DNA of 41,543 nucleotides from Deltaproteobacteria bacterium (GCA_032125195.1 JAQBCN010000060.1:1-41543); one strand, 5' to 3'; numbered from the stretch's first letter, positions 11,473 to 30,831 are shown. The notes: generated from the sequence alone by a model not told the origin. Translations and numbers: made by a program.

Positions 11473-12104
11473 CGGTTCTTCCCTCCCGTTCCGGCGGTTT
11501 TGAGCTCCCTATCGATGACCGTCTTGTACGCCTCGAACGGCCGGTCCCCCGGAAGTTTCACCCCGTTGATGAAGATCGTCGGCGTGTTGTACAGGTCGAG
11601 CGCCTCCCCGAGCTTCACGTCCCGATCGATCTCCGGTGTATGCCGCATCGTGTCCAGGTCCTTCGTGAAGCGGGGGACGTCGAGCTTCAGTTCCTTCGCG
11701 TACGCGATGAGGCTTTCCCGGTCCAGCTTCGGCGACCGGTCGAGCAGGAGGAGGTGCATTTCGCGGAACTTCCCCTGGTCGTGCGCCGCAAGCGACGCCT
11801 CCGCGGCGATGCGCGAATGGTCCCGGTACCGGTACGGCAGGTGCTTCACCACGAGGCGGACGCTTCCGCCGTACTCCTTGAGGATCCTCTCGACGGTCGG
11901 ACCGACCGCCTTGCAGTGGGGTCACTGGTAGTCGAGGAATTCGACGATCGTCACCGGCGCGTTTGCGGGCCCGATGGACGGGGAGTCGCCCGCCGGCACG
12001 GCGTACCGGACGTCGGCTGCCCCCGCCGGGACCGCGGCGAGAAGCGTCAGGGTGATCCACAAGGCAAGGCGGCGTGCGTTCGGTCGCAAGGCGCTTCCTT
12101 TCAT
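11469..12104 (-). CDS. Exported DsbA/thioredoxin-fold selenoprotein (UPHC active site; in-frame TGA at 11922-11924 read as Sec)
   Basis: ORFs 11922..12122 and 11469..11852 share a frame and are joined by an open linker: GPANAPVTIVEFLDYQ-[TGA]-PHCKAVGPTVERIL...VVKHLP...YNTPTIFING. The TGA occupies the first Cys of CxxC and a SECIS-like hairpin follows. SD GGAGGAGG precedes ATG 12104. 211 aa. Confidence 0.88.
11892..11924 (-). promoter_or_regulatory. Bacterial SECIS-like element of the DsbA-like gene
   Basis: mRNA reads UGA + 11 nt + GGCGGUCG-GUC-CGACCGUC (8-bp stem, 3-nt loop; hairpin at 11892-11910). Confidence 0.75.
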
Positions 12105-12234
12105 GCGTTCCACCTCCTCCACCGAGATCGGTCGTTCTCCGCCAGCGATTCTACTACAATGCGGCCGGTTGGTCGCGTGCGGGGATGAATGTCCCTGCGG
12201 CGACGACGAAAAACAAATGACGGTTATTCCGGTG

Positions 12235-12340
12235 GCGATGATAAAATCGTTTAATATCGAATATATATAATGGATCGCGATTTATTATCGTTATTCATCT
12301 GATTTTTATTGATCTGTTTATAACATTTTTATAGTATCAG
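12235..12340. promoter_or_regulatory. AT-rich divergent regulatory region between the Sec-DsbA/MauG-like operon and the fdn operon
   Basis: The most AT-rich stretch in the window. Contains overlapping ATC-N11-GAT dyads (12287-12303, 12297-12313) and a degenerate ModE-like 27-mer at 12287-12313. A TAGAAT -10 lies nearby on the minus strand at 12148-12153. Confidence 0.55.
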
Positions 12341-12409
12341 CGAGGATCCGGCGGTTTTCTCTTTTTACGGATACGGCGTCAATCCGACCGACCGAAGGAG
12401 GTGCACCGG

Positions 12410-15400
12410 ATGGCGATATCACGCAGGGAGTTCTTCAAGACCTCGGGGGCGGGGCTGGCCGCGGGCCTGCTCGGCTTCTCCCTCGACCCCGTGAGGGCGA
12501 AGGCCGACGAGTTCAGCCTCCGCTACGCGAAGGAGACGACCACCATCTGCCCCTACTGCTCGGTGGGGTGCGGGATGATCGTCCACACGCTCGGCGGGAA
12601 CCTTGTGAACGTCGAAGGCGATCCCGATCACCCGATCAGCGAGGGGTCCCTCTGCCCGAAAGGCTCCTCGGTCCTCCAGCTCCGGGACAACAAGGCCCGC
12701 GTGACGAAGCCGCTCTACCGCGCGCCGGGCGCGAAGGAGTGGAAGGAGGTCGACTGGGACTGGGCGCTCGACGAGATCGCGAAGAAGGTGAAAAAGACCC
12801 GGGACGCCACCTTCACCGCCAAGAGCAGCATCAAGGTGAAGGAGAAGGTCGGGGACAAGGAGGTCGAGAAGACGGTCGAGGCGGTCGTCAACCGGACGAA
12901 CGGGATCGCCCACGTAGGGAGCGCCGCGCTGGACAACGAGGAGTGCTACCTCCTCCAGAAATTCCTCCGGGGGTTGGGCCTGGTCGCCATCGAGCACCAG
13001 GCGCGAATATGACACAGCGCCACTGTAGCGGCTCTGGCAGAGTCGTTCGGACGAGGCGCGATGACGAATCACTGGATCGACATAAAGAACGCGGACGTAA
13101 TCCTCATCATGGGGGCCAACCCGGCGGAGAACCACCCCGTCGCCTTCCGCTGGATCCAGCGGGCGAAGGATAACGGCGCCAAGGTCATCTGCGTCGACCC
13201 GCGCTTCACCCGGAGCGCGTCGAAGGCCGACATCTACGCCCCCCTCCGGTCGGGGACGGACATCGCCTTCCTCGGCGGGATGATCCGGCACATCCTCGAA
13301 AACCATCTCTACCACCAGGAGTACGTGGCCAACTACACGAACGCGTCGTACCTCGTTGGCCCCGACTTCAAGATGCCCGGAGACCTGGCCGGCCTCTTCT
13401 CCGGGTACGACAAGAAGAAGGGGAAGTACGACAAGAAGACGTGGGCGTACCAGAAGGGCCCCGACGAGGTGATCCGGAAGGACGAGACGCTGAAGGATCC
13501 CCGTTCCGTCTTCCAGTTGATGCGGAAGCACTACTCCCGATACACGCCCGACCTCGTATCGAGCATCACCGGAACGCCGAAGGAGGCGCTTCTCAAGGTA
13601 TACGAGGTGTACGGCTCCACGGGGAAGCCGGACCGGTCGGGGACCGAGCTGTACGCGATGGGGTGGACCCAGCACACGGTGGGGACGCAGAACATCCGCG
13701 CGATGAGCATCATCCAGCTGCTGCTCGGCAACGTCGGGGTGGCGGGCGGAGGGATCAACGCCCTGCGCGGCGAGAGCAACGTCCAGGGCTCCACCGACCA
13801 CGGGCTCCTCTTCCACATCCTTCCGGGGTATCTCGCGGTTCCTTCCGCGGACCTTCCCACCCTCGAGAAGTACGTCGAGAAGTACACCCCCAAGACGAAG
13901 GAGGCCCAGAGCGCGAACTGGTGGGGGAACCGGAACAAGTACATCACGAGCTACCTGAAGGCGATCTACGGCGCCAAGGCGACGAAGGAGAACGACTTCG
14001 GATACGCCTGGCTTCCCAAGAACGACCCGGGGGTGAACTCCTCCTGGCTGATGATCTTCGACAACATGCTTCGCGGCAAGTACAAGGGGTTCTTCGCCTG
14101 GGGGCAGAACCCGGCCTGCTCCGGATCCAACGCCGGAAAGGTCCGGAAGGCTTTGGAGCACCTGGAGTGGATGGTGACGGTCAACCTGTTCGACAACGAG
14201 ACGGCGTCGTTCTGGAAGGGGCCGGGGGTGGATTCGTCGAAGGTGAACACGGAGGTCTTCTTCCTCCCCGCGGCCGCTTCGTTCGAGAAGGAGGGGAGCG
14301 TCACCAATTCCGGCCGGTGGGCGCAGTGGCGCACCGCGGCGGTCAAGCCTCTCGGGCAGTCGCGGCCCGACTCCGAGATCATGAACGACCTCTTCTTCCG
14401 GCTCAAGGCGCGCTACGCGAAGGAGGGAGGCGTCTACCCCGACCCGCTCGTGAACCTCACCTGGAACTACGGGTACAGGCAGTTGGACGGTACGGCCCGG
14501 TCGGTCGACATCCACGCGGTGGCGAAGGAGATCAACGGCTACTTCGTCGACGACGTCGAAGTGAAGCCGAAACCGGGAGAGCCCCCCCCGAAGGAGAAGA
14601 CGTTCGTCGGGAAGAAGGGGGAGCTGGCGGGCAGCTTCGCGCTGCTCCAGGCGGACGGAACCACCACCAGCGGGAACTGGCTCTACTGCCAGAGCTACAA
14701 CGAGAAGGGGAACATGATGGCCCGGCGGGGAAAGAAGGACCCCACGGGGCTCGGGCTCTTCCCCGATTGGTCCTGGGCGTGGCCCGTGAACCGGCGAATC
14801 CTCTACAACCGGGCGTCGGTCGACCTTTCGGGCAAGCCGTACCTTTCGAAGAAGGCGGTCATCTACTGGAACGCCAACGCGGTCCTTCCCGGCGGGAAGC
14901 TCGGCAAGTGGGAGGGCGATGTTCCCGACGGGGGGTGGCCCCCGATGGGGAACGAGAAGGACGGGAAGAAGCCGTTCATCATGCGGGCCGACGGCGTGGC
15001 GTCGGTCTTCGGACCGGGGCTTGCGGACGGCCCGTTCCCCGAGCATTACGAGCCGCTGGAGTGCCCGATCCAGGAGAACCTGATGTCGAAGCAGATGACG
15101 AACCCCGCGGCGAAAAAGTTCGCCGACGGGGGGTTGCCCGAGGATGTGTACGCCTCCTGCGACACGCGGTTCCCTTACGTGGCGACGACGTACCGGGTGA
15201 CCGAGCACTGGCAGACGGGGGTGCTTTCCCGGAACGTCCCGTGGCTCCTCGAGCTCCAGCCCCGGCTGTTCGTGGAGATGAGTCGGGAGCTCGCGAAGGA
15301 GAAGAAGATCCGGAGCGGCGACATGGTCGAGGTCGCCTCGGCACGCGGCAAGGTCGACGCCGTCGCCATCGTCACCCTGCGTTTCAGGCCGTTCAAGGTG

Positions 15401-15562
15401 GCCGGCGGTACGGTTCACGAAGTCGGACTCCCGTGGTGCTTCGGCTGGTTTACGCCGGGGGTGGGGGAATCCGCCAACCTCCTCACGCCGACGGCGGGGG
15501 ACGCGAATACCATGATCCCTGAAACGAAGGCGTTCATGGTCAACGTCAAGGCGAGGGGGTGA
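12410..15562 (+). CDS. fdnG: Formate dehydrogenase alpha subunit, Tat-exported, selenocysteine-containing (TGA 13010-13012)
   Basis: Tat signal SRREFFK and 4Fe-4S motif CPYCSVGC...LCPKG. HQARI-[TGA]-HSATVAALAESFGRGAMTNHW joins ORFs 12401..13012 and 13061..15562 in frame. Also ALRGESNVQG and a C-terminal molydopterin-binding domain. 1050 aa. Confidence 0.96.
13010..13059 (+). promoter_or_regulatory. SECIS element of fdnG
   Basis: UGA + 15 nt + GCGGCUCU-GGC-AGAGUCGU (13028-13046). Extendable by an A-U pair, a bulged U and CUG/CGG, with a lower GCGCC/GGCGC stem. Confidence 0.85.
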
Positions 15563-16350
15563 CCGCCATGGCCGAGGTACGCATGGGATTTCTCGTAGAC
15601 ACGTCGCGCTGCATCGCCTGCCGCGCCTGCCAGGTCGCGTGCAAGGCGTGGAACCACCTGGACGCGGACAAGACGGTCGAGAAGGGGAGCTACGAAAACC
15701 CGACCGACCTCACCCCCAACCTCTACAACCGGATCCGGTTCCTCGAGAGCGCGGACGCCGGGGGGAACGTGAAGTGGCTCTTCATGAACGAGCGGTGCGT
15801 CCACTGCGGCGACGCGGGGTGCATGAAGGTCTGCCCGGCGCCGGGGGCGCTCCACCGGACGAAGGAAGGGATCGTCGTCTTCGACAAGGAGAAGTGCATT
15901 TCGTGCAAGTATTGCGTCTCCGCCTGTCCGTTCAACATCCCCCGCTACGGGGCGGACGACAAGGTGACCAAGTGCCACCTGTGCTTCGACCGGATCGGGG
16001 CGGGCATGCTCCCGGCGTGCGCCCAGGCGTGTCCGACCGAGACGCTGCAGTTCGGGGGCCGGAACGCCCTGATCGCGAAGGCGAAGGGGGCGGGGAAGAA
16101 GCTGTACGGGGAGAGCGCGCTCGAGGGACTGGGGGTCGTCTACGCGCTCGAGGAGAAGCCCGAGGTGTACGGCCTTCCGGAGAATCCGTCGATCCCGACA
16201 TCGATCTTCCTGTGGAAGGACGTGGTGAGGCCGCTCGGGATCCTCGGCTTCTGGGGCAGCGTCGCCGCGGTGGTGGTCCACTACGTGACCTTCGGATCGC
16301 GCCAGCTCGAGGAGGACGGGAAGGGGAAGGGAGGCGATGCGCATGGGTAG
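15559..16350 (+). CDS. fdnH: Formate dehydrogenase iron-sulfur (beta) subunit
   Basis: Four Cys clusters (CIACRACQVAC; CVHCGDAGCMKVCP; CISCKYCVSACP; CHLC..PACAQACP) and a C-terminal TM helix. Start may be ATG 15568. Confidence 0.92.
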   Translation: MTAMAEVRMGFLVDTSRCIACRACQVACKAWNHLDADKTVEKGSYENPTDLTPNLYNRIRFLESADAGGNVKWLFMNERCVHCGDAGCMKVCPAPGALHRTKEGIVVFDKEKCISCKYCVSACPFNIPRYGADDKVTKCHLCFDRIGAGMLPACAQACPTETLQFGGRNALIAKAKGAGKKLYGESALEGLGVVYALEEKPEVYGLPENPSIPTSIFLWKDVVRPLGILGFWGSVAAVVVHYVTFGSRQLEEDGKGKGGDAHG

Positions 16351-16957
16351 GAAATACGTCGAGCGATTCAACACGGCCGAGCGGGTGCTCCACTGGTTCG
16401 TCGCCGCGTCGTTCTTCACCCTGCTCCTGTCGGGGCTGGGGCTCTACTCCCGGCTCTTCCACGGCTACTTCGACCTGTTCGGGGGCGGGGAGGGGGCGAT
16501 CCTGGCCCACAAGTACGGGGGGGTGGTCTTCTTCGTCAGTTCCCTGATGCTCTTCCTCAACCACGCAAAGGATATGTTCACTTTCGACGAGGACGACCGG
16601 AAGTGGTGCAAGTCGCTGGGGGGCTACCTGTCGAAGAACCCCGAGCACATCAACAGCGGGAAGTTCAACGCCGGACAGAAGCTGTTCGGCATCTTCATGG
16701 GGATCTCGACGCTGCTGCTCGGGATCACCGGGGTCATCAACTGGGTCCCCGAATCGTTCCCGCGGGGGGTCGTCCAGTTTTCGCTGCTGCTCCACGGCCT
16801 CCTGTTCGTCTGGTTCGTGATGCTCATGATCGTGCACGTCTACCTCACCACGATCGGCAACCCGGGGACGCTCGAGGGGATGTTGTACGGCAACGTCCGC
16901 AGGATCTGGGCGCGGACCCACCACCCGAAATGGTATAAGGAGGTAGAGGGCGAATAA
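16343..16957 (+). CDS. fdnI: Formate dehydrogenase cytochrome b (gamma) subunit
   Basis: Motifs ERVLHW, LLSGL, GKFNAGQK, LLH..IVHVY and WARTHHPKWY; four TM helices. Confidence 0.92.
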   Translation: MGRKYVERFNTAERVLHWFVAASFFTLLLSGLGLYSRLFHGYFDLFGGGEGAILAHKYGGVVFFVSSLMLFLNHAKDMFTFDEDDRKWCKSLGGYLSKNPEHINSGKFNAGQKLFGIFMGISTLLLGITGVINWVPESFPRGVVQFSLLLHGLLFVWFVMLMIVHVYLTTIGNPGTLEGMLYGNVRRIWARTHHPKWYKEVEGE

Positions 16958-16982
16958 TCGACGGGAAGGGGCTTCGGGAGGG

Positions 16983-17825
16983 ATGAGTCGTACGGCGGAC
17001 AAGATTGCGCACCTCCGGAAGACCGCTTTCGAGCATCCGGAGTACATCGACGTGCTCCTCCCGTTCGAAGAGATCTTCGCGTACGTGGACGGGAAGGAAG
17101 CCGGGACGGGGATCCGCTTCGCCGTCCCGGAAGGGAACGGGGCGGAGCGGGTGCAGGGAGGTCTTCCGCTCCTGTCTCCCGAGGCGCTCTCCGTGGATCG
17201 GGACGCCGCGACGGCCTTCCTTTCCGGGCTGCTCGACGTCCTGCGGCGTGTCGGCAGGGAGGGGCACGCGGATCTCGACCGGATCGGGGGGGGGCTTTCG
17301 GACGGTTCCCTCGACCTTGCCTCCCTGTACGTCGCCTGTCTTGCCCGGAAACGGGACGTCGTGGACCAGGCGGCGACCTCCCTTTCGGTCCAGGCGCCCC
17401 TGCTCGCCTTCGTCCTCGAGATTCCGTTGAAGACCGCCCTCGAGCGCGTTTCCTCCACCCTTCCCACGGAGCGGTTCGACGGATGGAAGGAAGGGTATTG
17501 TCCCGTCTGCGGCTCCCGCGCCGGGATGGCCGAACTTTCCGGGGACGAGGGGAAGCGGCGGCTCTCCTGCTCCGCCTGCTTCTTCCTCTGGCCGTTCCCC
17601 CGGATCCAATGCCCCTACTGCGGAAACGCGGACCCGGAAACGCTCTCCTATTTCACCGCCGGGGACGGGCCCACCCGGGTCGGGGTGTGCCGCGGCTGCA
17701 GCCGGTACCTGAAGACCTGCGATACGCGCCTCGGGAACGCGAACGTGCCGCTGGAAGCCGAAGACCTCGCCACCCTCCACCTGGACCTGCTGGCGGGGAA
17801 GGAAGGGTTCGAGAGAGGGAAATGA
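16983..17825 (+). CDS. fdhE: Formate dehydrogenase accessory protein FdhE
   Basis: GYCPVCGS, CSAC, RIQCPYCGN, CRGCSRYLK and DLATLHLDLLA; position in the fdn operon. Confidence 0.9.
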   Translation: MSRTADKIAHLRKTAFEHPEYIDVLLPFEEIFAYVDGKEAGTGIRFAVPEGNGAERVQGGLPLLSPEALSVDRDAATAFLSGLLDVLRRVGREGHADLDRIGGGLSDGSLDLASLYVACLARKRDVVDQAATSLSVQAPLLAFVLEIPLKTALERVSSTLPTERFDGWKEGYCPVCGSRAGMAELSGDEGKRRLSCSACFFLWPFPRIQCPYCGNADPETLSYFTAGDGPTRVGVCRGCSRYLKTCDTRLGNANVPLEAEDLATLHLDLLAGKEGFERGK

Positions 17826-19216: not shown

Positions 19217-19232
19217 CCGACAGGGGGGCACG

Positions 19233-19520
19233 ATGGAAGGACCTCAGAAGTCGATGGAGATCCAGGTGACGTTCCCGGAACACCTCAAGGGCGGCGTCTA
19301 CTCCAACAGCATGACCGTGACCCACACCCGCGAGGAGTTCGTGCTGGATTTCATGATGGTCGCACCGCCCGCCGGCTCCGTAACCGCGAGGATCATCCTC
19401 TCCCCCGGCCACATCAAACGGGTCGTCGCGGCGCTCTCGGAAAACCTCAGGAAGTACGAAGAGGCGCACGGGACGATCCTCGCCGCCCAGGAGCCGCAGG
19501 GGAAGATCGGCATCAACTAG
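19233..19520 (+). CDS. Small conserved hypothetical protein (DUF3467-like)
   Basis: 95 aa. The pattern GVYSN..VTHT.EEFVLDF...ARIILSP.H.KR...L..N...YE..HG.I resembles DUF3467 as recalled; not searched. Confidence 0.7.
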   Translation: MEGPQKSMEIQVTFPEHLKGGVYSNSMTVTHTREEFVLDFMMVAPPAGSVTARIILSPGHIKRVVAALSENLRKYEEAHGTILAAQEPQGKIGIN

Positions 19521-19566
19521 GGAGGCGAATGCCTCAATTCACGAATCCGATCGCATTCGAACGCCG

Positions 19567-20352: not shown

Positions 20353-20519
20353 GTGCGCCCCCTCCCTACCTGCGTCGGTCGACAGATATCGCCGGCGGTT
20401 CGTTCCTTTCGCGGCACCGTACCAATATAATGGATAATCAGACGCGGCTTACCATTTCGTCGCCGCATTGATATTCTTCCACTGATTCCCGGCCCGCGGA
20501 CGCGGACGAGAGGAGAGTC

Positions 20520-23469: not shown

Positions 23470-24515
23470 CCTCGGCCCGGATGCCCGCGGAGTGGGAGCC
23501 GCACGAGGCGACCTGGATCGGATGGCCGCACAACGCTTCCGACTGGCCCGGGAAGTTCGCCTCCATCCCGTGGGTCTACGGGGAGATCGTCCGGAAGATC
23601 GCCGCCGGCGAGGCCGTCCGGATCCTCGTGCAATCGAAGGCGCACGAGGCGAAGGCGGGCCGTCTTCTCTCCCGCGTCGGGGTCGATTCCGCCCGCGTCG
23701 CCTTCTTCCGCTTTCCGACCGATCGCGGCTGGACGCGCGACTTCGGCCCGATCTTCGTCTGCAGGGAGCGTCCGAAGCGCGGAGTGGCGGTCGCGGGGTT
23801 CGGGTTCAACGCGTGGGCCCGATACCCGAACTGGCGAAAGGACGCGGCCGTCGCCGCGCGGGCCGCGCAGGCGCTCGGCGTCCCGCTCCTTCCGGTCCGG
23901 CTCCGGGGGAAACGCGTCGTACTGGAGGGGGGCGCGATCGAGGTCAACGGCCGGGGAACGCTGATCGCTACGGAGGAGTGCCTTCTCGACGCGGAGGTCC
24001 AGGTCCGCAACCCCGGGATGGCGCGCAAGGAGTTCGAGGGGATCTTTCGCTCGTTCCTCGGCGTCACGAACGTGATCTGGCTGGGGAAGGGGATCGTCGG
24101 GGACGACACGCACGGCCATGTGGACGATCTGTGCCGCTTCACGGGCCCCCGCACGGTGGTGCTGTGCCGGGAGAAGGATCCGCGGGACGAAAATCATCGC
24201 GTGCTGGAAGAAAACCGGGAGCGGCTCGCGTCCGCACGGCTCGAAGACGGTTCCCGGCCCGAGGTGGTTCCGCTTCCGATGCCCGCGCCGCTGCGCCTCG
24301 ACGGGATCCGCCTGCCGGCGAGCTACGCCAATTTCTACATATGCAACGCGGCGGTTCTCGTTCCCACCTTCAACGACCCGAACGACCGGGTCGCGCTCGG
24401 GATCCTCTCCGAACTGTTCCGGGACCGGCCGGTGGTCGGAATCCACGCCGTGGATCTCGTGTGGGGGTTCGGCACGCTCCACTGCCTGACGCAGCAGCAA
24501 CCGGTGTCCGGTTGA
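23466..24515 (+). CDS. aguA: Agmatine deiminase (peptidyl-arginine deiminase family)
   Basis: GTG 23466 overlaps the aguB stop. Motifs MPAEWEPH, WTRDFGP, FNAW, LEGGAIE, DDTHGHVDD, ASYANF and GTLHCLTQQQP. Confidence 0.9.
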   Translation: MTSARMPAEWEPHEATWIGWPHNASDWPGKFASIPWVYGEIVRKIAAGEAVRILVQSKAHEAKAGRLLSRVGVDSARVAFFRFPTDRGWTRDFGPIFVCRERPKRGVAVAGFGFNAWARYPNWRKDAAVAARAAQALGVPLLPVRLRGKRVVLEGGAIEVNGRGTLIATEECLLDAEVQVRNPGMARKEFEGIFRSFLGVTNVIWLGKGIVGDDTHGHVDDLCRFTGPRTVVLCREKDPRDENHRVLEENRERLASARLEDGSRPEVVPLPMPAPLRLDGIRLPASYANFYICNAAVLVPTFNDPNDRVALGILSELFRDRPVVGIHAVDLVWGFGTLHCLTQQQPVSG

Positions 24516-24526
24516 GGAGAGGGAGG

Positions 24527-24844
24527 ATGCCGGCGAGAATCATCGGGTCCATCCTCGTCGCGGTCTTCGCCCTGTCGCTGCTTCCCGGGCCGGCCGCCGC
24601 GGAGGAACGGACGGTCGCGGGAACGATCGTCCGCCTCGATCCCGCAAAAGGCGTGCTCGTCGTGCGGGACGCGGCGGGAGCGTCCTGGAGCTACAAGGTC
24701 GAGGCCGACGCCGGGATCGACCTGTCGGCCTTCCGGCCGGGCGACCGCGTCAAGGTGTCGATAGGCCGCGCGACTCCGCTCAACATGATCACGGCGGCGG
24801 ATCCGCTGCGCAAGGGGGACCGGGTCGAGAAGGCCCCGTACTGA
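24527..24844 (+). CDS. Small exported beta-rich (OB-fold-like) hypothetical protein
   Basis: SD GGAGG before ATG 24527. 105 aa with a signal peptide ending AAA, then GTIVRLD...LVV...PGDRVKV, a CusF/OB-fold-like strand pattern. Confidence 0.65.
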   Translation: MPARIIGSILVAVFALSLLPGPAAAEERTVAGTIVRLDPAKGVLVVRDAAGASWSYKVEADAGIDLSAFRPGDRVKVSIGRATPLNMITAADPLRKGDRVEKAPY

Positions 24845-24880
24845 CCGGTCCGGCGGCGAAACCCGAAAGGAGGCGGTGGC

Positions 24881-25009
24881 GTGAGCAAATGGGTCATCCT
24901 GTGCCCCGATTGCGGGGAGGAGTTCAAGATCGACGTGGAGGAGACACCGGAGCGTTGCCCTCATTGCAAGTTCGAGGGGAACTTCGAGGTCGTGGACATG
25001 GACGAATGA
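24881..25009 (+). CDS. 42-aa zinc-ribbon/rubredoxin-like microprotein (absent from ORF track)
   Basis: Strong SD AAAGGAGG (24866-24873) and GTG start. Sequence MSKWVILCPDCGEEFKIDVEETPERCPHCKFEGNFEVVDMDE* with two CPxC motifs. Fills the gap between two same-strand genes. Confidence 0.8.
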   Translation: MSKWVILCPDCGEEFKIDVEETPERCPHCKFEGNFEVVDMDE

Positions 25010-25027
25010 TGTGCGCCGGCGGGTGAC

Positions 25028-26653
25028 ATGGCCGGCCCGGACCTCCTGCTGATTCACCCGCCCGCCGCCCGGCCCGCGGAACCGCCCCTGGGGACGGCGG
25101 TGCTCCTGTCCCACCTGCGCCGGGGAGGCGCGACGGCGGAGGCGATCGACGCCAACCTGGAGGCGCACCTTTACCTGCTCGACGGGGATCGGCTGGCCGC
25201 CGCCGCCGGCCCCGCACCCGCGATCGCTCTCCACCGGGCCATGAAGGGCGTCCCCGAGGCGCTCTCCTTCCTCCGTTCCCCCGATGCCGCGAGATCGTTC
25301 CCACGGTACGTGACCGCCGCGCGACGACTGAACGCGGCGTTGTCCGCGCATCGCGGCGCGGGCGGGCGGGAACGTTGGACGCTCGGCGACTACGTCCACG
25401 GCGATCTCTCGGAGTTTTCGCCCCGGGACCTCTCTCTCGCGGCGTCCGGGAAAGCGGGAACGGTCTTCTCCGGCTACTTCCGCGACGCCCTCCTCCCCCG
25501 CGTCGTCCGGATGCGTCCGCGCGGCGTCGCGATCTCCGTGAACTACCGGCACCAGATCCTCCCCGCCTTCGAGCTTGCGGGGTTGCTCCGACGTCGCCTT
25601 CCCGGTATCCCTGTCTTCGGCGGCGGGGGGATGTTCACCTCCTGGCGGCCTTCCCTCCGCGGCATGGACTGTTCGTTCCTCCCCTTCGCCCGGGTCGGGT
25701 TCGGCCCGGGGGAGCATTCCCTCGCGGCGTTGACCGGAAGCGCGCCAACGGGCGGCGGCATCTTTTTCGAGGACGGGGAAGCGGTGGAGTTCCTCCCCGA
25801 TTTCGGCTTCGCGCCGCTCCGGGAGTATCTGTCCCCGGAGCCGGTCCTCCCGGTCACCTCGACGCGGGGATGCTACTGGAGGAGATGCCGGTTCTGCCCC
25901 GAGGCGGTCGCCCCCATCCATCCGTACCGGGCGACGGACCCGGGGACGTTCCCCGCGCTTCTGCGGGAGCTGTCCGACCGGTACGGCGTCCGGCGGTTTC
26001 ACCTGACGGACAACGCGATCCCGGTTCCCGTTCTCCGCTCGATGGCGGCCGCGGGGAGCGCGCTGCGCGGCTTTTCGTGGCACGGGTTCGCCCGCTTCGA
26101 GCGGGAACTGCTCGAACCGGATCTGGCCTCCTCGCTCGCCGCCGCGGGGTGCTCGATGCTTCAACTGGGGCTGGAGAGCGGCTCGCAGCCGCTTCTGGAT
26201 CGAATGGGAAAGGGGACGCGCGTCGCCGACGCTTCGGCGATCCTGTCGAACCTCTCCCGCGAGGGGATCGTCGCCTACGTGTACGTGATGCTCGGCGCTC
26301 CGGGAGAGACGAAGAACGACGCGGAGCGGACGTTGTCGTTCCTCTCGGAGCACGCCGGGGAGATCGGCTTTCTGAACCTGTCGATCCTCAACATGCCGCG
26401 CGATGCATGCTGGACGGGAATCGCCGAAGAGGGCGTACCGCGGGAGGGCGGGTTCAACGACGAAGAGGAACCGCTCGGCTTGTACCGGCCGGTTCCCGAG
26501 GGGGACGGCTGGGGGAGGGCCCAGGCCCGGCGGTTTCTGCAGAAGCGGATCCTGGGCGACCCGGCGATCCGGGCCATCGCGGCCCGGACCCCGCCCTGGT
26601 TCGGCGACAGCCACGCCTTCTTCTTCCGCCCGGGGGGACATTCCTGGTTCTGA
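25028..26653 (+). CDS. Radical SAM protein with N-terminal cobalamin-binding-like domain
   Basis: N-terminus DLLLIHPP...PPLG typical of B12-binding radical SAM proteins. Also TRGCYWRRCRFC (CxxxCxxC), LTDNAI, LGLESGSQPLLDRMGKG and MLGAPGET. Confidence 0.85.
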   Translation: MAGPDLLLIHPPAARPAEPPLGTAVLLSHLRRGGATAEAIDANLEAHLYLLDGDRLAAAAGPAPAIALHRAMKGVPEALSFLRSPDAARSFPRYVTAARRLNAALSAHRGAGGRERWTLGDYVHGDLSEFSPRDLSLAASGKAGTVFSGYFRDALLPRVVRMRPRGVAISVNYRHQILPAFELAGLLRRRLPGIPVFGGGGMFTSWRPSLRGMDCSFLPFARVGFGPGEHSLAALTGSAPTGGGIFFEDGEAVEFLPDFGFAPLREYLSPEPVLPVTSTRGCYWRRCRFCPEAVAPIHPYRATDPGTFPALLRELSDRYGVRRFHLTDNAIPVPVLRSMAAAGSALRGFSWHGFARFERELLEPDLASSLAAAGCSMLQLGLESGSQPLLDRMGKGTRVADASAILSNLSREGIVAYVYVMLGAPGETKNDAERTLSFLSEHAGEIGFLNLSILNMPRDACWTGIAEEGVPREGGFNDEEEPLGLYRPVPEGDGWGRAQARRFLQKRILGDPAIRAIAARTPPWFGDSHAFFFRPGGHSWF

Positions 26654-26693
26654 CACGGGAGAAAGGGAAGGAGTGTCCTCCCCCTGCGGAGTC

Positions 26694-28706
26694 TTAGCTC
26701 CGCAGCACCACCCGGGCGTCGGCGATCGACAGCCCCCGCGGGTGGACGATGACCGGGTTGAGGTCCATCTCCTCGATCTCCGGGTGGGACGCGAGGAAGG
26801 CCGACAGCCGCATCAGGAGGTCCCTCAGGGCGTCGAGGTCCCCGGCGGGCTTCCCGCGGAGCCCCGTGAGCGCCTTGTACCCCCGGATCTCGCGGATCAT
26901 CCCGACGGCGTCCTCCTCCGAGAGCGGCGTGACGCGGAACGAGACGTCCTTCATCACCTCGACGAAGATCCCCCCGAGGCCGAACATCACGGCGTGGCCG
27001 AACTGGGGGTCCTTCGTGACGCCGACGATCACCTCGTGCCCGGCGGGCGCCATCGCGCAGACGAGCGCGCCTCCGGTCCGCGCGCCGAGCCTTCCTTCCG
27101 CCGCGCGGATCGACCGGAACGCCGAGCGGACGCCGGCGTCGTCGGCCACGTTGAGGAAGACGCCCCCGGCGTCGCTCTTGTGCGTGACGTCGGGTGAGTT
27201 CATCTTCACCGCCACGGGGAAGCCGATCCCGTGGGCCGCGGCGACCGCCTCGTCCTCGGTCCCGGCGCGCCGGAAGCGGGTCAACGGGAAGCCGGCGCGG
27301 GCGAGGAACTCCATCGAGTCGGCGGGAGTCATCGCCGTCCCCGACGTCGCCTCCCCGTGTCCCGCCTCTTCCATCGAGAGCGGAAAGAGGTCGCGGCGGA
27401 ACCGGACGTGGCACGAGAGGGCCTTCACGGCCCGCTCGGGCGTGGGGAAGACGGCGATCTTCTTCTCGTGGAACAGCACCCGTTCCGCGCGCTCCACGTC
27501 GGCGCCGCCGAGGTAGGCTACCAGCTCGCAGCGGCCGGGGCGGACCACTTCGGAAGCCCCGGGGATCGGGTCGCCGAAGATCGTCATCACCGCGTCGAAC
27601 TCCCCTTCCGCCGCGTCGAGCACGTTCCGGTAGCGGGCGGCGTCGGTGTCCCCGGTGAGATCGAGGGGGTTGCCTACGATGCAGTGGGAGGGGAGGATCT
27701 CGCGGAGTTTTCCGGAGAGTTCGCCGGAAAGCGGGGTGACGCGCAGCCCTTCCTCCTCGGCCACGTCGGTGGCGATGATCGCGGACCCCCCGGAGCTCGT
27801 GACGATCAGCATTCGCGGACCCTCGGGAGGCGGGACGTAGGCGAGGGCTTTCGCGAAGTCGTACAGCTCCTCGAGCGTGTCGGCGCGGTGCACGCCGTTC
27901 TGCCGGAAGACGGCGTCGTAGATCTCGTCGCGCCCCGCGAGCGACCGGGTGTGCGACTCCGCCGCCTTGCGCCCCCGCTCGGTCCGCCCGGCCTTGAAGA
28001 TCACGATCGGCTTCGTGCAGGCGCGGACGGCGGAGAGGAACTTCGGCGCGTCCTTCACCCCTTCGATGTAGAGCGCGATCACCTTCGTGTGCGGGTCCTC
28101 CGCGAAGAAGGCGATCAGGTCCGCCTCGTCGACGTCCGAACGGTTCCCCATGCTGACGAAGGCGGAGAACCCGAGCCGCTCTTCCGAGGCCCAGTCGATC
28201 AGAGCGGCGCCGACGGTGCCGCTTTGGGAGACGATCGCGATCTCCCCCCGCCGGGTGATCAGGGGCCACGAGGCGCACACGCCGTGGTACGGGTAGTTCA
28301 CGCCCTGGCAATTCGGCCCCACCACGCGGATCCCCGCCTCCTCCGCGGCCTTTGTCATCTCCGCCTGGAGCGTCGCCCCGGGCTCGCCGGACTCGGCGAA
28401 CCCCCCCGTGATCACGATCGCCGACTTCACCTTCCGCCCCCCCAGTTCCCGCATCGTCCCGGGGACGAGCTTCGCGGGGATGATCACGACCGCGAGGTCG
28501 GTCCCCTCGGGGAGATCGGCGGCGGACTTTACGGAGGGGACGCCCAGGATCACCTCCCCCTTCGGGTTCACGGGGACGATTTCGCCGGCGTAGCCGGCCT
28601 CCTTGATGTTGCGGAAGATCTGGAACCCCATCTTGTCGGGGTTCGAGGATGCGCCGATCACGGCGATCCGGGAGGGACGAAACAGGGGAGACAGGGGAGA
28701 GGTCAT
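26694..28706 (-). CDS. Acetate/acyl-CoA ligase (ADP-forming), fused alpha-beta
   Basis: CoA-binding LFRPSRIAVIGAS, GPNCQG, SQSG, SMGN, phospho-His motif ESHT, and ATP-grasp GFPVAVK..HKSDAGGV, DPQFG and EMDLNP. Start at ATG 28706. Confidence 0.9.
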   Translation of the reverse strand: MTSPLSPLFRPSRIAVIGASSNPDKMGFQIFRNIKEAGYAGEIVPVNPKGEVILGVPSVKSAADLPEGTDLAVVIIPAKLVPGTMRELGGRKVKSAIVITGGFAESGEPGATLQAEMTKAAEEAGIRVVGPNCQGVNYPYHGVCASWPLITRRGEIAIVSQSGTVGAALIDWASEERLGFSAFVSMGNRSDVDEADLIAFFAEDPHTKVIALYIEGVKDAPKFLSAVRACTKPIVIFKAGRTERGRKAAESHTRSLAGRDEIYDAVFRQNGVHRADTLEELYDFAKALAYVPPPEGPRMLIVTSSGGSAIIATDVAEEEGLRVTPLSGELSGKLREILPSHCIVGNPLDLTGDTDAARYRNVLDAAEGEFDAVMTIFGDPIPGASEVVRPGRCELVAYLGGADVERAERVLFHEKKIAVFPTPERAVKALSCHVRFRRDLFPLSMEEAGHGEATSGTAMTPADSMEFLARAGFPLTRFRRAGTEDEAVAAAHGIGFPVAVKMNSPDVTHKSDAGGVFLNVADDAGVRSAFRSIRAAEGRLGARTGGALVCAMAPAGHEVIVGVTKDPQFGHAVMFGLGGIFVEVMKDVSFRVTPLSEEDAVGMIREIRGYKALTGLRGKPAGDLDALRDLLMRLSAFLASHPEIEEMDLNPVIVHPRGLSIADARVVLRS

Positions 28707-28723
28707 CCGCGTGCTCCTTTCGG

Positions 28724-29944
28724 TCAGTAGACGAGGCGGGCGCGGATCGTGTTGGGGATCCGCCGGAGGTCTTCCACGATCCCGAGGTCGCACCCCTGCG
28801 CCACGTCGATCAGCGCGTACCCCAGGCGTCCGCGCGTCTCGAGCCGCTGCCCGGCGATGTTCATGCCGTTCCGCGCGAAGAGGTCGTTGATCTGCGCCAG
28901 CATCCCGGGGAGGTTCTCATGGACGTGGGCGAACCGGTGGCGCTGGGAGGTCGAGGAGGGGGAGAGGACCGGAAAGTTCACGCTCGTGGACGTGCTCCCC
29001 GTCGACAGGTATTCGAGAAGCGTCGCCGCCACGAATCCTCCGATCCCCTGCTGCGCCTCCTCGGTCGAACCGCCGATGTGGGGGGTCAGGATCACGTTCG
29101 GGAGCCCCTGAAGCGGCGAGGAGAAGGGGTCCTTGTTGGAGCGGGGCTCCTCCGGGAATACGTCCACCGCCGCGCCGCGGACCTTCCCGGCGCGCACGTT
29201 CCGCGCGAGCGCCTCCACGTCCATCACGAAGCCGCGGCTCAGGTTCAGGAAGATCACCCCGTTCTTCATCGCCGCGAATTCCCGCTCCCCGACGAGCCCC
29301 CGGTTTTCCTCCCGTCCGTCGACGTGGACGGTGACGATGTCCGAGACCCGGAGAAGTTCCTCCAGGGAGGATTTCCGGGCGTTCCCCAGCGAAAGCTTCT
29401 CCACGAGGTCGTGGTAGTACACCTCCATCCCCATCGCTTCCGCAAGGATGGAGAGTTGGGAGCCGATGTTCCCGTACCCGACGATCCCGAGTTTCTTCCC
29501 CCGGATCTCGTGGAACCCTTCCGAGGACTTCCCCCATACCCCCCGGTGGAGGTCATTGCTGCGGTCGAAGACGCCGCGCAGGAGCAGGACCATCTCGCCC
29601 AGGGCAAGCTCGACCACGCTGCGGGTGTTGCTGTAGGGGGCGTTGAAGACCGCCACCCCGCGCCGGCTGCACGCCTCGAGGTCGACCTGCTCCGTCCCGA
29701 TGCAGAACGCGCCGATGGCCAGAAGATCCGGGGCGCGCTCCAGAAGGTCGGCGGTAACACGGGTTTTCGAGCGGATCCCGAGAACGGAGATGTCCCCGAT
29801 CTCCTGGGCGAGCACCTTCCGGGGGGGGCTGTGCGGCACCCGCTCCACGGCGTGCCCCGCCGCCGCGAAGACCGCCCCCGCGTCGGGGTGGATGTTCTCC
29901 AGCAGCAGGATCTTCATCGCATGCCGAGGGGAGCCACGCGGCAT
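28724..29944 (-). CDS. serA: D-3-phosphoglycerate dehydrogenase with C-terminal ACT domain
   Basis: Motifs KILLLENIH, GIRSKT, FCIGT, FNAPYSNTRSVVEL, GYGNIG, DVFPEEP, TPHIGGSTEEAQ and HENLPGMLAQIN. Start is ATG 29944 (TGATG overlap with the upstream gene) or ATG 29917. Confidence 0.9.
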   Translation of the reverse strand: MPRGSPRHAMKILLLENIHPDAGAVFAAAGHAVERVPHSPPRKVLAQEIGDISVLGIRSKTRVTADLLERAPDLLAIGAFCIGTEQVDLEACSRRGVAVFNAPYSNTRSVVELALGEMVLLLRGVFDRSNDLHRGVWGKSSEGFHEIRGKKLGIVGYGNIGSQLSILAEAMGMEVYYHDLVEKLSLGNARKSSLEELLRVSDIVTVHVDGREENRGLVGEREFAAMKNGVIFLNLSRGFVMDVEALARNVRAGKVRGAAVDVFPEEPRSNKDPFSSPLQGLPNVILTPHIGGSTEEAQQGIGGFVAATLLEYLSTGSTSTSVNFPVLSPSSTSQRHRFAHVHENLPGMLAQINDLFARNGMNIAGQRLETRGRLGYALIDVAQGCDLGIVEDLRRIPNTIRARLVY

Positions 29945-30831
29945 CAGGATCGGCAGACGGGGCAGGAGGGGGAACCCCCTTGTTCCGCCCGGCGGCGGTC
30001 CTCCTCGTCCTGGTACTGCGGGACGTCGTGGCGGGGCGTACGGCCGTCTCCTTCCGCGAACGCCTTCGCTTTCCACTCCTCATCCTCCGACCAGCGGAAC
30101 GGAAGTTCCTTCATGGAGCCCGGGGTCGTCATCGTCTCGAAGGAGGAGAGCGCCTCGACCAGAATCCGGTGCTGCAGGTCGGGCGCGTGCGGCTTGCCGG
30201 TCGTGTGCCCGAGGGGAAAGTCGAGGAACGCCGCGCGGGGGGGGTTGACCGCTTCCGTGATGTCCCGCGCGCTCGTCATGCAGAGCGTCGGTATCCCGGC
30301 GGCCTCCGCGTGCCTTGCGACCAGTCCCACGGACTGGTGGCAGACGGGTCAAACGGGTACCAGCAGGACCGCGTCGACGCCATCCTCGAGGAACCGCGTG
30401 GTCAGACGCGGGGCCAGGTCCTCGGTGACGCGGCGGGAGGAGTAGATTCCTCCCATGAACGCGTGGAAGCGGCTCGCCAGTCCCCCGAGGAACCCCTCCC
30501 GCACAAGGCGGCGCAGCGTGTCGATCGGGAAGACGACGTTCGGGTCCGTGCGCGCGTTGGACAGGTCGTAGGCGAAGTGGGTCGCGCGCAGTTCCTTCGT
30601 GTCGATGTCCGTCGGGATTTCGCGCAACGAGGTGTCGTCCTTGTAGTGGAACGCCACCTGCCCGGCGGCGTAGATCCCCCCCGAGGCGACCAAACCCAGC
30701 CGGCATTGCGAAAGGGGCTTGCGAAGCGGCGCCCACGGCGCGGTGTCCCGGTTGACCACCCAGTTGTACGACTTGTACCCAAGCCTCGCGTAGTTGTCGC
30801 GGATCCTCGGAATGTAGTCGACGGGCCCCAT
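29944..30831 (-). CDS. PrdB/GrdB-family (proline/glycine reductase selenoprotein B-like) selenoprotein, UPVC motif (TGA 30349-30351)
   Basis: ORFs 30349..30852 and 29944..30330 are in frame: DGVDAVLLVPV-[TGA]-PVCHQSVGLVARHAEAAGIPT...NPPR...FPLG. The N-half has PLRKPLSQCRLGLVASGG and DPNVVFPIDTLR. SD GGAGG precedes ATG 30831 and a TAGAAT -10 lies at 30851-30856. SECIS-like hairpin present. 295 aa. Confidence 0.88.
30320..30351 (-). promoter_or_regulatory. Bacterial SECIS-like element of the PrdB-like gene
   Basis: mRNA reads UGA + 10 nt + ACCAGUCC-GUG-GGACUGGU, a perfect 8-bp stem (30320-30338), extendable with UGC/GCA. Confidence 0.8.

What the first reader, a model, noticed from the sequence alone, without database searches (positions are those of the whole stretch)
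11892..30351. Three in-frame UGA codons share one compact SECIS architecture
Seen: DsbA-like UGA-N11-GGCGGUCG[GUC]CGACCGUC; fdnG UGA-N15-GCGGCUCU[GGC]AGAGUCGU; PrdB-like UGA-N10-ACCAGUCC[GUG]GGACUGGU. All three have 8-bp stems with 3-nt loops starting with G, unrelated stem sequences, and a UGA at the catalytic Cys/Sec position. Known: bacterial SECIS elements lie just 3' of the UGA with a G in the apical loop read by SelB. Inference: three selenoprotein genes within about 19 kb suggest a selenoprotein-rich organism, and the shared shape gives a lineage-specific pattern for finding further hidden selenoproteins.
Basis: partly seen in the sequence, partly recalled or inferred. Interest (0 to 1): 0.7.

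Follow-up and report, generated by a model that had tools for sequence, protein, structure and literature searches.

The report
Three ordinary bacterial selenocysteine (SECIS) hairpins
Three genes in this window each carry a UGA that is read as selenocysteine, followed by the small RNA hairpin bacteria use for that; this is a well-supported but textbook case, and E. coli shows the same hairpin shape.

Summary
Observation confirmed. All three strings sit exactly where stated, each 10-15 nt after an in-frame TGA at the Cys/Sec position of a known selenoprotein family: FdnG, a DsbA-like thioredoxin-fold protein (UPHC), and a PrdB-like protein (UPVC).

- **Machinery:** the genome, a Candidatus Deferrimicrobium-like MAG, has tRNA-Sec, selA, selB and a Sec-containing selD. 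It has at least 12 selenoprotein genes.
- **Rarity of the pattern:** it follows 3 of 790 predicted TGA gene ends (2 of those are fdnG Sec sites), 0 of 666 TAA/TAG ends, and 0.12% of in-frame coding positions.
- **Conservation:** orthologues keep the TGA and the hairpin. Compensatory changes support the PrdB-like and DsbA-like helices. For FdnG, support comes from silent-site invariance, one lower-stem compensation and loss of the hairpin in a Cys form.

The "lineage-specific" inference fails. E. coli fdnG has UGA-N11-stem-GUC triloop, and the PrdB-like hairpin is conserved in records labelled as several other phyla. As a search tool the strict pattern finds 7 of 12 Sec sites, and only 7 of its 64 genome-wide hits are real. 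Ordinary biology, all in known families; low interest.

The parts
11469..12104 (-). DsbA-like (Thioredoxin_4/DSBA) selenoprotein gene, 211 codons, N-terminal signal-like segment, redox motif U61-P-H-C
   Evidence: Translation with TGA=U. Pfam Thioredoxin_4 82.1 bits and DSBA 56.6 bits, both above cut-off. In-frame TGA in the same YQ*PHC context in 29 of 30 family loci; the 30th is an unrelated fragment.
11922..11924 (-). Sec codon UGA of the DsbA-like gene (U61)
   Evidence: Cys (TGC) stands at the same motif position in three more distant homologues, L281, L284 and L291.
11892..11910 (-). SECIS minihelix GGCGGUCG[GUC]CGACCGUC, 11 nt after UGA; loop G and U fall at positions 23 and 24 counted from the U of UGA
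   Evidence: 94.6% of cells paired; 3 of 8 pairs show changes on both sides in 21 distinct orthologues; 0 of 500 shuffles reach the covariation score. Silent-site entropy is 0.000 over codons +4 to +10; only 3 of 164 windows are as low.
12410..15562 (+). fdnG, formate dehydrogenase-N alpha subunit, Tat-type N-terminus, U201
   Evidence: NCBIfam TIGR01553 1369.4 bits against a cut-off of 814.2. Followed by fdnH, fdnI, fdhE and an fdhD/mobA fusion.
13010..13012 (+). Sec codon UGA of fdnG (U201), context ARI-U-HSATVA
   Evidence: Same context as E. coli FdnG U196, ARV-U-HGPTVA. 29 of 30 family loci have TGA here and 1 has TGC.
13027..13047 (+). Upper SECIS helix AGCGGCUCU[GGC]AGAGUCGUU (9 bp, G-first triloop), 14 nt after UGA
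   Evidence: Invariant in 20 orthologues apart from the third loop base, C or G.
13013..13063 (+). Extended fdnG SECIS including a lower helix (13017-13021 pairs with 13055-13059)
   Evidence: MFE and centroid of the 60-nt fold. One G-C to A-U compensation plus a G-U intermediate in the lower helix; this is not significant on 7 distinct sequences. Weak full-length match to Rfam SECIS_3, 23.4 bits against a gathering score of 63, E 0.021.
29944..30831 (-). PrdB-like (Pfam GRDB) selenoprotein gene, 295 codons, motif U161-P-V-C
   Evidence: Translation. Pfam GRDB 46.5 bits against 22. NCBIfam PrdB TIGR04483 163.2 bits, below its cut-off of 300.
30349..30351 (-). Sec codon UGA of the PrdB-like gene (U161)
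   Evidence: All 34 full-length family matches of at least 73% identity carry an in-frame TGA. Of 80 loci from other genomes, 75 have TGA, 1 has TAG and 4 have Cys at this codon.
30320..30338 (-). SECIS minihelix ACCAGUCC[GUG]GGACUGGU, 10 nt after UGA; the loop is exactly one Val codon, GUN
   Evidence: 96.8% of cells paired; 3 of 8 pairs compensatory (41 cells) in 66 distinct sequences; 0 of 500 shuffles; slid controls reach at most 46.6% paired.

Best explanation
The three TGAs are selenocysteine codons in fdnG, a periplasmic DsbA-like oxidoreductase gene and a PrdB-like gene. The hairpin after each is a canonical bacterial SECIS.

Inferred mechanism: when the ribosome reaches the UGA, the mRNA beyond about 10-15 nt is free to fold into an 8-9 bp minihelix with a G at the first position of its apical loop. 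The C-terminal domains of SelB, carrying GTP and Sec-tRNA(Sec), bind that loop and tether the complex at the right distance. Sec-tRNA(Sec) then outcompetes release factor 2 at the A site.

Shown here:
- the elements exist;
- their shape and position are rare in this genome;
- the Sec machinery is present;
- homologues have Cys or Sec at the same codon;
- the hairpins are conserved beyond what the protein sequence requires, and two helices show covariation.

Inferred from E. coli work, not shown here: SelB binding and actual read-through.
For: 1. **Machinery.** tRNA-Sec with anticodon UCA lies on C152. selB scores 298.1 bits (cut-off 242.25), selA 556.9 (267.9), and selD 315.7 (125) with its own in-frame TGA.
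2. **Protein families.** All three are described selenoprotein families with U at the redox or catalytic position. Table passages seen in PMC2398784 and PMC9312934 list FdhA, PrdB (UxxC) and DsbA (UxxC).
3. **Rarity of the strict pattern.** It follows 3 of 790 TGA gene ends, 0 of 666 TAA/TAG ends and 668 of 545,105 coding positions.
4. **Hairpin strength.** Using the best hairpin with a G in loop position 1-2, 12 of 12 Sec sites score -8.7 kcal/mol or lower. Only 20 of 782 true TGA stops and 154 of 5000 random coding positions reach -9.
5. **TGA is kept in orthologues.** 34 of 34 PrdB-like, 29 of 30 DsbA-like loci and 29 of 30 FdnG loci.
6. **Covariation.** PrdB-like: 3 of 8 pairs, 0 of 500 shuffles. 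DsbA-like: 3 of 8 pairs, 0 of 500.
7. **Silent sites.** SECIS codons are among the least variable windows: 2 of 279, 3 of 164 and 16 of 380.
8. **Loss in a Cys form.** The Cys-form FdnG (L181) has no hairpin of 5 bp or more in this position.
9. **Same geometry in E. coli.** fdnG and fdhF both have N=11. A passage in PMC8659212 describes a 17-nt upper stem-loop 11 nt from the UGA, with G23 and U24 in the loop.
Against: - No direct evidence of Sec insertion: no proteomics, no reporter, no SelB binding assay.
- Whole-segment folding energies are not unusual against shuffles, with z from -0.03 to -1.98. The DsbA-like hairpin is absent from the 60-nt MFE structure.
- Within the family alone, covariation is not significant for FdnG (132 of 500 shuffles) or DsbA-like (192 of 500). 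The fdnG upper helix never varies, which neither supports nor opposes pairing.
- 6 of 21 distinct DsbA-like sequences have a C-A mismatch at one pair.
- None of the three has the bulged U that E. coli SelB uses.
- No Rfam family reaches its gathering score.
- One Cys homologue of the PrdB-like protein (L218) has a strong but different hairpin at this spot.
- The set of 'true stops' comes from my own crude gene caller, not a validated one.
- selB is cut off by a contig end.
Confidence: 0.93

Rival explanations
1. The shared 8-bp stem and G-first triloop is a lineage-specific SECIS form tuned to the SelB of this lineage (Deferrimicrobiaceae). It would then serve as a lineage descriptor for finding hidden selenoproteins.
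For: - 8 of 12 Sec sites in this genome have a G-first triloop. All 12 have uninterrupted stems of 6-10 bp with no bulged U, starting 10-16 nt after the UGA.
- Unrelated genes converge on the shape.
Against: - E. coli fdnG has N=11 and a GUC triloop.
- The PrdB-like hairpin keeps the same N, stem length and GUN loop in records from several other phyla. The shape therefore travels with the gene, not the lineage.
- 4 of 12 sites here have 4- or 6-nt loops.
- The strict pattern recovers 7 of 12 sites, and 57 of its 64 hits are not Sec sites.
- The scan found no new family. The one hairpin-plus-coding candidate outside known families (C91) proved to be two adjacent genes.
Confidence: 0.12
2. The hairpins are by-products of conserved amino-acid sequence in a GC-rich genome and have no RNA function. 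The TGAs are either read through by another route or the genes are split or pseudogenes.
For: - Folding z-scores are unremarkable.
- The fdnG upper helix shows no covariation.
- The loop and stem codons encode conserved residues.
Against: - Four-fold degenerate third positions inside the stems are frozen while flanking ones vary.
- Where amino acids do change, the partner base changes too. Examples: Val to Ile paired with a silent His change, and Ser to Thr paired with a silent Gly change.
- The Cys-form FdnG loses the hairpin.
- TGA is the commonest stop codon here, at 790 of 1456 called ends, so it is not a general sense codon.
- A single Pfam or NCBIfam domain runs across each TGA.
- The in-frame TGA is kept in dozens of genomes, which does not fit pseudogenes.
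Confidence: 0.03
3. The match is chance: in a 66% GC genome an 8-bp hairpin near any given TGA is common.
For: The strict pattern occurs after 64 of 42,679 TGA triplets genome-wide, mostly out of frame. 2.6-3.1% of control sites have a hairpin of -9 kcal/mol or lower.
Against: The per-site rate is 0.12-0.15%, yet 3 of 3 window sites and 7 of 12 genome Sec sites have the strict pattern. 11 of 12 Sec sites score -9.7 or lower. Conservation and covariation point the same way.
Confidence: 0.01

Closest known systems
E. coli fdnG SECIS (formate dehydrogenase-N)
   Same: Same gene family and same Sec context, AR(I/V)-U-H. In E. coli the hairpin starts 11 nt after the UGA and has a GUC triloop with G23 and U24. 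Family paralogues of the window's fdnG (L178, and L184-L189) keep that N=11 register, with a GUC triloop or a GGUCU pentaloop.
   Different: In the window's fdnG the hairpin is shifted to N=14/15. It has a GGC loop, 9 uninterrupted pairs, no bulged U, and a lower helix.
E. coli fdhF SECIS, the experimentally defined minimal element (17-nt upper stem-loop 11 nt from the UGA; U17, G23, U24)
   Same: Spacing of 10-15 nt. A small apical loop with G, usually followed by U or G. In the DsbA-like element the loop G and U fall at positions 23 and 24 (passage in PMC8659212).
   Different: fdhF has a GGUC tetraloop and a bulged U17. The three elements here have triloops and perfect 8-9 bp stems.
bSECISearch consensus model of bacterial SECIS (Zhang and Gladyshev)
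   Same: A stem-loop immediately 3' of the UGA with a G early in the apical loop. This is how the families concerned were originally found (passages in PMC12013277 and PMC9312934).
   Different: I could not run bSECISearch, and I recall the model's numeric limits only from memory, so membership was not formally tested. The papers note that some known SECIS elements do not fit the model.
Rfam SECIS_3 (RF01989)
   Same: The fdnG element aligns over the whole model, positions 1-59.
   Different: It scores 23.4 bits against a gathering score of 63. The DsbA-like and PrdB-like elements match no Rfam family, even at E up to 10.
Described selenoprotein families: FdhA/FdnG, DsbA-like (UxxC), PrdB/GrdB (UxxC)
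   Same: Same Pfam families and the same Sec motif (tables in PMC2398784 and PMC9312934).
   Different: The PrdB-like protein is below the NCBIfam PrdB equivalog cut-off (163 against 300). It lies between a universal stress protein gene and an ADP-forming acyl-CoA synthetase-like gene rather than in a prd operon. Its substrate is unknown.

Membership tests
Bacterial (SelB-dependent) SECIS | Stem-loop within the coding region, immediately 3' of an in-frame UGA | tested here: met
   The hairpins start 11, 14/15 and 10 nt after the TGA, inside continuous reading frames.
Bacterial (SelB-dependent) SECIS | Apical loop with a conserved G (G23/U24 in E. coli fdhF) at a fixed distance from the UGA | tested here: met
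   The loops are GUC, GGC and GUG, with the loop G at positions 23, 27 and 22 from the U of UGA. E. coli fdnG and fdhF have the G at 23 and 22-23.
Bacterial (SelB-dependent) SECIS | Bulged U in the 5' arm of the upper stem (U17 of E. coli fdhF) | tested here: not met
   All three stems are uninterrupted. This is a feature of the E. coli elements (passage in PMC8659212). From memory, not from a call, it is not required in all bacteria.
Bacterial (SelB-dependent) SECIS | Cognate machinery in the same genome (selA, selB, selC, selD) | tested here: met
   The selB frame runs off its contig end.
Bacterial (SelB-dependent) SECIS | UGA aligns with Cys in homologues | tested here: met
   FdnG: L181 has TGC. 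PrdB-like: L218, L219, L260 and L265 have Cys. DsbA-like: L281, L284 and L291 have Cys.
Bacterial (SelB-dependent) SECIS | Helix supported by compensatory changes | tested here: met
   Met for PrdB-like and DsbA-like. For fdnG, only one compensation in the lower helix, not significant; the upper helix is invariant.
Bacterial (SelB-dependent) SECIS | Binds SelB and directs Sec insertion at the UGA | not testable with these tools
   Needs a reporter, a binding assay or proteomics.
Rfam SECIS families (for example SECIS_3, RF01989) | Score at or above the family's gathering threshold | tested here: not met
   0 matches at gathering score in the window. The fdnG site scores 23.4 bits against 63. 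Nothing was found for the other two sites.
Formate dehydrogenase-N alpha subunit (TIGR01553) | Score above the curated cut-off, Sec/Cys at the Mo-ligand position, and fdnH/fdnI neighbours | tested here: met
   1369.4 bits against 814.2. ARIUHS context. fdnH, fdnI, fdhE and fdhD lie downstream.
DsbA-like selenoprotein | DSBA/thioredoxin fold with a UxxC motif | tested here: met
   Pfam DSBA 56.6 bits against 25.6 and Thioredoxin_4 82.1 against 23.2. Motif UPHC. The NCBIfam Rcas_1661 (seleno)lipoprotein model is below its cut-off, 75.5 against 190.
D-proline reductase PrdB (TIGR04483) | Score above the equivalog cut-off | tested here: not met
   163.2 bits against a cut-off of 300. Hence 'PrdB-like' only. 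Pfam GRDB is above its threshold, 46.5 against 22. The UxxC motif is present.
D-proline reductase PrdB (TIGR04483) | Partner PrdA encoded nearby | not tested
   The neighbours seen are a universal stress protein gene and an acyl-CoA synthetase-like gene. No genome-wide search for prdA was run.

The most novel reading that the evidence does not exclude
The SelB of this uncultured lineage may have settled on a stripped-down recognition element: a bulge-less 6-10 bp minihelix capped by a G-first triloop, seen at 8 of 12 Sec sites. That would make it a natural minimal SECIS, useful for engineering.

Separately, the PrdB-like SECIS (8 bp plus a GUN Val-codon loop at N=10) is an old element specific to its gene family. 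It is conserved across records labelled as several phyla, no Rfam family matched it here, and it persists where the Sec codon is UAG (Blastococcus).
Probability: 0.25. Interest if true: 0.35.

Novelty: new member of a known kind. Interest (0 to 1): 0.2.

Why it matters
- **Annotation.** Standard gene callers would split or truncate these three genes, and at least nine others in this genome, at the TGA. Reading them correctly restores a complete respiratory formate dehydrogenase and several redox enzymes in a poorly known lineage (Candidatus Deferrimicrobiaceae).
- **Possible new RNA models.** The covariation data for the PrdB-like and DsbA-like SECIS helices could seed covariance models. No Rfam family matched either site in this scan.
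- **Mechanism.** Nothing here challenges current understanding of selenocysteine decoding.

Tried and rejected
- **Wrong frame.** translated fdnG from the wrong first base and gave a frame full of stops. One search corrected it.
- **Folding z-scores as a discriminator.** They are uninformative in this GC-rich genome. I replaced them with position-and-shape counts and with conservation.
- **De novo selenoprotein scan.**
  - My own codon-usage gene caller produced 85 read-through candidates. Of these, 82 went to Pfam; the 3 window genes had been scanned.
  - 12 candidates have a family match across the TGA. The other 73 are adjacent genes that happen to be in frame, or non-coding.
  - The filter is not fully sensitive. 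The first versions missed fdnG and selD. Sec sites near an N-terminus or a contig end may still be missing, so 12 is a lower bound.
- **Hairpin-plus-coding candidates that failed.** The candidates on C4, C13, C85, C89, C123, C155 and C177 have no domain across the TGA, or have non-coding upstream frames.
- **C91 candidate.** A small protein plus an RDD protein, with an 8-bp stem and 7-nt loop at N=17. Rejected: in other genera of the family the two halves are separate genes, some overlapping in different frames.
- **Family-only covariation.** It lacked power for fdnG and DsbA-like. Adding four orthologues from the wider phylum rescued DsbA-like. I did not do the same for fdnG.
- **Regex mis-hits.** The motif regex hit the wrong frame in 5 of 80 loci. 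One search resolved these as 4 TGA and 1 Cys. In one search, 4 of the 20 fetched DsbA-like loci gave no motif hit and were left unresolved.
- **Earlier notes of this scan.** None exist for this genome.
- **Deferrimicrobium and selenocysteine in print.** The one search required only one of the two terms, and none of the 10 papers listed holds the word Deferrimicrobium. This does not show that nothing is in print.
Full report
**1. What is there**

Each lies just after an in-frame TGA.
- On the minus strand, TGA 11924-11922 is followed after 11 nt by GGCGGUCG[GUC]CGACCGUC.
- On the plus strand, TGA 13010-13012 is followed after 15 nt by GCGGCUCU[GGC]AGAGUCGU. One more A-U pair makes this 9 bp at N=14.
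- On the minus strand, TGA 30351-30349 is followed after 10 nt by ACCAGUCC[GUG]GGACUGGU.

Reading TGA as U gives three uninterrupted proteins.
- A 211-residue protein matches Pfam Thioredoxin_4 and DSBA and has the motif UPHC.
- A 1050-residue protein is FdnG: NCBIfam TIGR01553 scores 1369 bits against a cut-off of 814, and the context is ARI-U-HS.
- A 295-residue protein matches Pfam GRDB and has the motif UPVC. It scores 163 bits on the PrdB equivalog model, below the cut-off of 300, so it is PrdB-like and not a demonstrated proline reductase.

**2. Is it more than chance?**

Folding energy alone does not separate these segments from shuffled sequence in a 66% GC genome.
- Z-scores run from -0.03 to -1.98.
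- In a 60-nt fold the DsbA-like hairpin is displaced by an alternative structure.
- When the bases that a ribosome paused at the UGA would cover are left out, all three hairpins are both the MFE and the centroid structure.

The informative control is position plus shape. I laid the genome in the script box and called genes with a simple codon-usage model: 1551 open frames covering 80% of the assembly. This caller is crude. The strict pattern is TGA, N10-15, an 8-bp stem with G-U allowed, and a 3-nt loop starting with G. It follows:
- 3 of 790 predicted TGA gene ends. Two of these are the Sec sites of fdnG and its paralogue. The third is a gene end on C147 followed by only 7 more open codons.
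- 0 of 666 TAA/TAG ends.
- 668 of 545,105 in-frame coding positions, or 0.12%.

A looser measure takes the best perfect hairpin starting 8-18 nt downstream, with a G in loop position 1 or 2. All 12 Sec sites of the genome score -8.7 kcal/mol or lower, and 11 of 12 score -9.7 or lower. Only 20 of 782 true TGA stops and 154 of 5000 random coding positions reach -9.

**3. Machinery**

The second refuter is not met either.
- ARAGORN finds a tRNA-Sec with anticodon UCA on C152.
- selB, selA and selD are all found above their curated cut-offs.
- selD itself has an in-frame TGA at the SxxAG-U position.
- The selB frame runs off its contig, so its C-terminal end is missing.

**4. The rest of the selenoproteome**

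This served as an independent test of the "shared shape".
- I collected 85 TGAs with coding potential on both sides, or with a strong downstream hairpin.
- I fetched them as loci.
- I scanned 82 read-through translations against Pfam. The 3 window genes had already been scanned.

Twelve have a family match running across the TGA. They are the three in the window plus nine others:

| Protein | Contig | Spacing N / stem bp / loop |
|---|---|---|
| Second FdnG | C93 | 14 / 9 / GGG |
| Split-Soret-cytochrome-like C_GCAxxG_C_C protein, just upstream of the second FdnG | C93 | 13 / 7 / GGUC |
| OsmC-like | C43 | 12 / 7 / UGGUGC |
| Rhodanese-rubrerythrin fusion | C145 | 11 / 7 / CGUGCC |
| DSBA/FrnE-like | C145 | 12 / 10 / GGCG |
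| MsrA | C147 | 11 / 9 / GUU |
| UXX-star glutaredoxin-like (NCBIfam 100 bits against a cut-off of 72) | C165 | 15 / 8 / GGA |
| DedA-rhodanese of the 'LYCAU' type | C170 | 16 / 6 / GUC |
| SelD | C206 | 12 / 8 / GGU |

(Sources.)

- Eight of the 12 have a G-first triloop. All 12 have uninterrupted stems beginning 10-16 nt after the UGA.
- The strict pattern captures 7 of 12.
- Genome-wide it hits 64 of 42,679 TGA triplets, so 57 hits are not Sec sites.
- Twelve is a lower bound, because my filters missed fdnG and selD at first.
- All 12 belong to families already listed as selenoproteins, or carrying "(seleno)protein" names (tables in PMC2398784 and PMC9312934; NCBIfam names).
- The one candidate outside known families, on C91, turned out to be two adjacent genes.

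**5. Relatives**

Record titles of close relatives name the lineage as Candidatus Deferrimicrobium / Deferrimicrobiaceae, formerly labelled Deltaproteobacteria. I searched 70 genomes of the family.
- All 34 full-length PrdB-like matches of at least 73% identity carry an in-frame TGA. In the 30 loci fetched, it is the same codon.
- 29 of 30 DsbA-like loci have TGA in the YQ-U-PHC context. The 30th is an unrelated fragment.
- 29 of 30 FdnG loci have TGA, and one (L181) has TGC.

Third-codon-position entropy over the hairpin codons is among the lowest in each gene. Only 2 of 279 windows are as low for PrdB-like, 3 of 164 for DsbA-like and 16 of 380 for FdnG. Flanking silent sites vary freely.

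**6. Covariation**

- **PrdB-like.** I aligned 66 distinct sequences from 80 genome-contig loci plus the window.
  - 96.8% of cells are paired.
  - 3 of 8 pairs change on both sides (C-G to U-A, G-C to A-U, U-A to A-U; 41 cells).
  - 0 of 500 shuffles reach this, and slid controls reach at most 46.6% paired.
  - Some compensations couple an amino-acid change on one arm to a silent change on the other. The third loop base, the wobble of a Val codon, varies freely.
- **DsbA-like.**
  - The family alone gave too little variation (192 of 500 shuffles).
  - Adding four Sec orthologues of 46-56% identity from the wider phylum gives 94.6% paired and 3 of 8 pairs compensatory, with 0 of 500 shuffles on the covariation score.
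  - Six of 21 sequences carry a C-A mismatch at one pair.
- **fdnG.**
  - The upper helix is invariant.
  - The lower helix has one G-C to A-U compensation with a G-U intermediate, not significant on 7 distinct sequences (132 of 500).
  - Its support rests on silent-site invariance, on loss of any comparable hairpin in the Cys-form orthologue, and on a weak full-length match to Rfam SECIS_3 (23.4 bits against 63).
- **Cys homologues of the other two genes.**
  - Three Cys forms of the DsbA-like protein show no hairpin.
  - Of four Cys forms of the PrdB-like protein, one has none, one has a weak hairpin, one has a strong but different hairpin, and one was not scored.

**7. Comparison with what is known**

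I took E. coli K-12 fdhF and fdnG from the public record and analysed them the same way.
- fdnG reads UGA-N11-GG(U)AGCAA[GUC]UUGCUCC: a GUC triloop with the G at position 23 and the U at 24.
- fdhF reads UGA-N11-GGUUGCA[GGUC]UGCACC.
- A review passage describes the minimal E. coli element as a 17-nt upper stem-loop 11 nt from the UGA, with U17, G23 and U24 critical, citing Liu et al. 1998 (PMC8659212; I saw passages only).

The window's elements are this canonical form. In the DsbA-like element the loop G and U even fall at positions 23 and 24. The differences are the absence of a bulged U, somewhat longer perfect stems, and a 3-4 nt downstream shift in the window's fdnG. Family paralogues keep the E. 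coli register of N=11.

The PrdB-like hairpin keeps its spacing, stem length and GUN loop in records labelled Binatota, Entotheonella, Gamma- and Alphaproteobacteria and Actinomycetota. The shape belongs to the gene family and to general SelB recognition, not to this lineage.

No Rfam family reaches its gathering score in the window.

**8. Verdict**

- The reading as three SECIS elements in a bacterium that uses selenocysteine widely is supported.
- The claim of a lineage-specific architecture useful for discovery is not supported.

This is a correct annotation-level finding of known biology: new members of known kinds. What remains inferred is SelB binding and actual Sec insertion.

Noticed in passing
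L231:675-719 (Blastococcus tunisiensis DSM 46838 record): The PrdB-like orthologue has TAG, not TGA, at the Sec codon, and a hairpin is still present (7 bp, AGUUG loop). This fits the published use of tRNA-Sec with a CUA anticodon in Geodermatophilaceae (passages in PMC5330540). The papers I saw list FDH, UGSC and AhpC for that lineage, and do not list a PrdB-like protein.
   Followed up: partly
window 11469-12104 (-) and 12410-15562 (+); family loci: The DsbA-like selenoprotein gene and fdnG are divergent neighbours here and on the same contigs within a few kb in many family genomes (for example G039:C7, G031:C61, G028:C418, G048:C94, G006:C107). In the window a di-haem cytochrome c peroxidase gene (10369-11508, -) follows the DsbA-like gene. 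This suggests a conserved periplasmic redox module; its function was not tested.
   Followed up: partly
window 12105-12409: The roughly 300-bp spacer between the divergent DsbA-like and fdnG genes is strikingly AT-rich in a 66% GC genome. It is presumably a shared promoter and regulatory region.
   Followed up: no
G000 contigs C43, C93, C145, C147, C165, C170, C206 (loci L026, L052, L053, L074, L075, L078, L085, L086, L095): Nine further selenoprotein genes lie outside the window: a second FdnG, a split-Soret-cytochrome-like protein, OsmC-like, a rhodanese-rubrerythrin fusion, DSBA/FrnE-like, MsrA, a UXX-star glutaredoxin-like protein, a DedA-rhodanese fusion and SelD. Each has a G-containing hairpin 11-16 nt after the UGA.
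   Followed up: yes
L276, L279, L280, L283, L286, L287 (distant DsbA-like paralogues): In these Sec-containing paralogues, reading the printed sequences by eye suggests the likely SECIS lies further downstream, about 27 nt after the UGA. It would be a 6-7 bp stem around an AGGU or AGUU loop (CUCGAGC...GCUCGAG, with CUUGAGC...GCUCAAG as an apparent compensated variant). My script capped the spacing at 22 nt and did not score it.
   Followed up: no
L017 (G000:C4:1418-1897) and L049 (G000:C89:2885-3046): Two contigs share a near-identical stretch that translates to the same peptide-like string and matches no Pfam family. It is probably a repeated non-coding or RNA element rather than a gene.
   Followed up: no
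window 24845-26650 (+): A small zinc-ribbon-like open frame ends in a TGA that is in frame with the following radical-SAM gene. I judged these to be two adjacent genes, not a Sec site: no domain crosses the TGA and there is no strong hairpin.
   Followed up: partly
G000:C147, minus strand, gene end at strand index 2251; G000:C165 plus strand, index 575: Two true TGA stops are followed 11-12 nt later by perfect 8-bp G-first-triloop hairpins. One of them is the stop of the UXX-star selenoprotein gene itself. These are likely terminators and show how the strict pattern gives false positives.
   Followed up: partly
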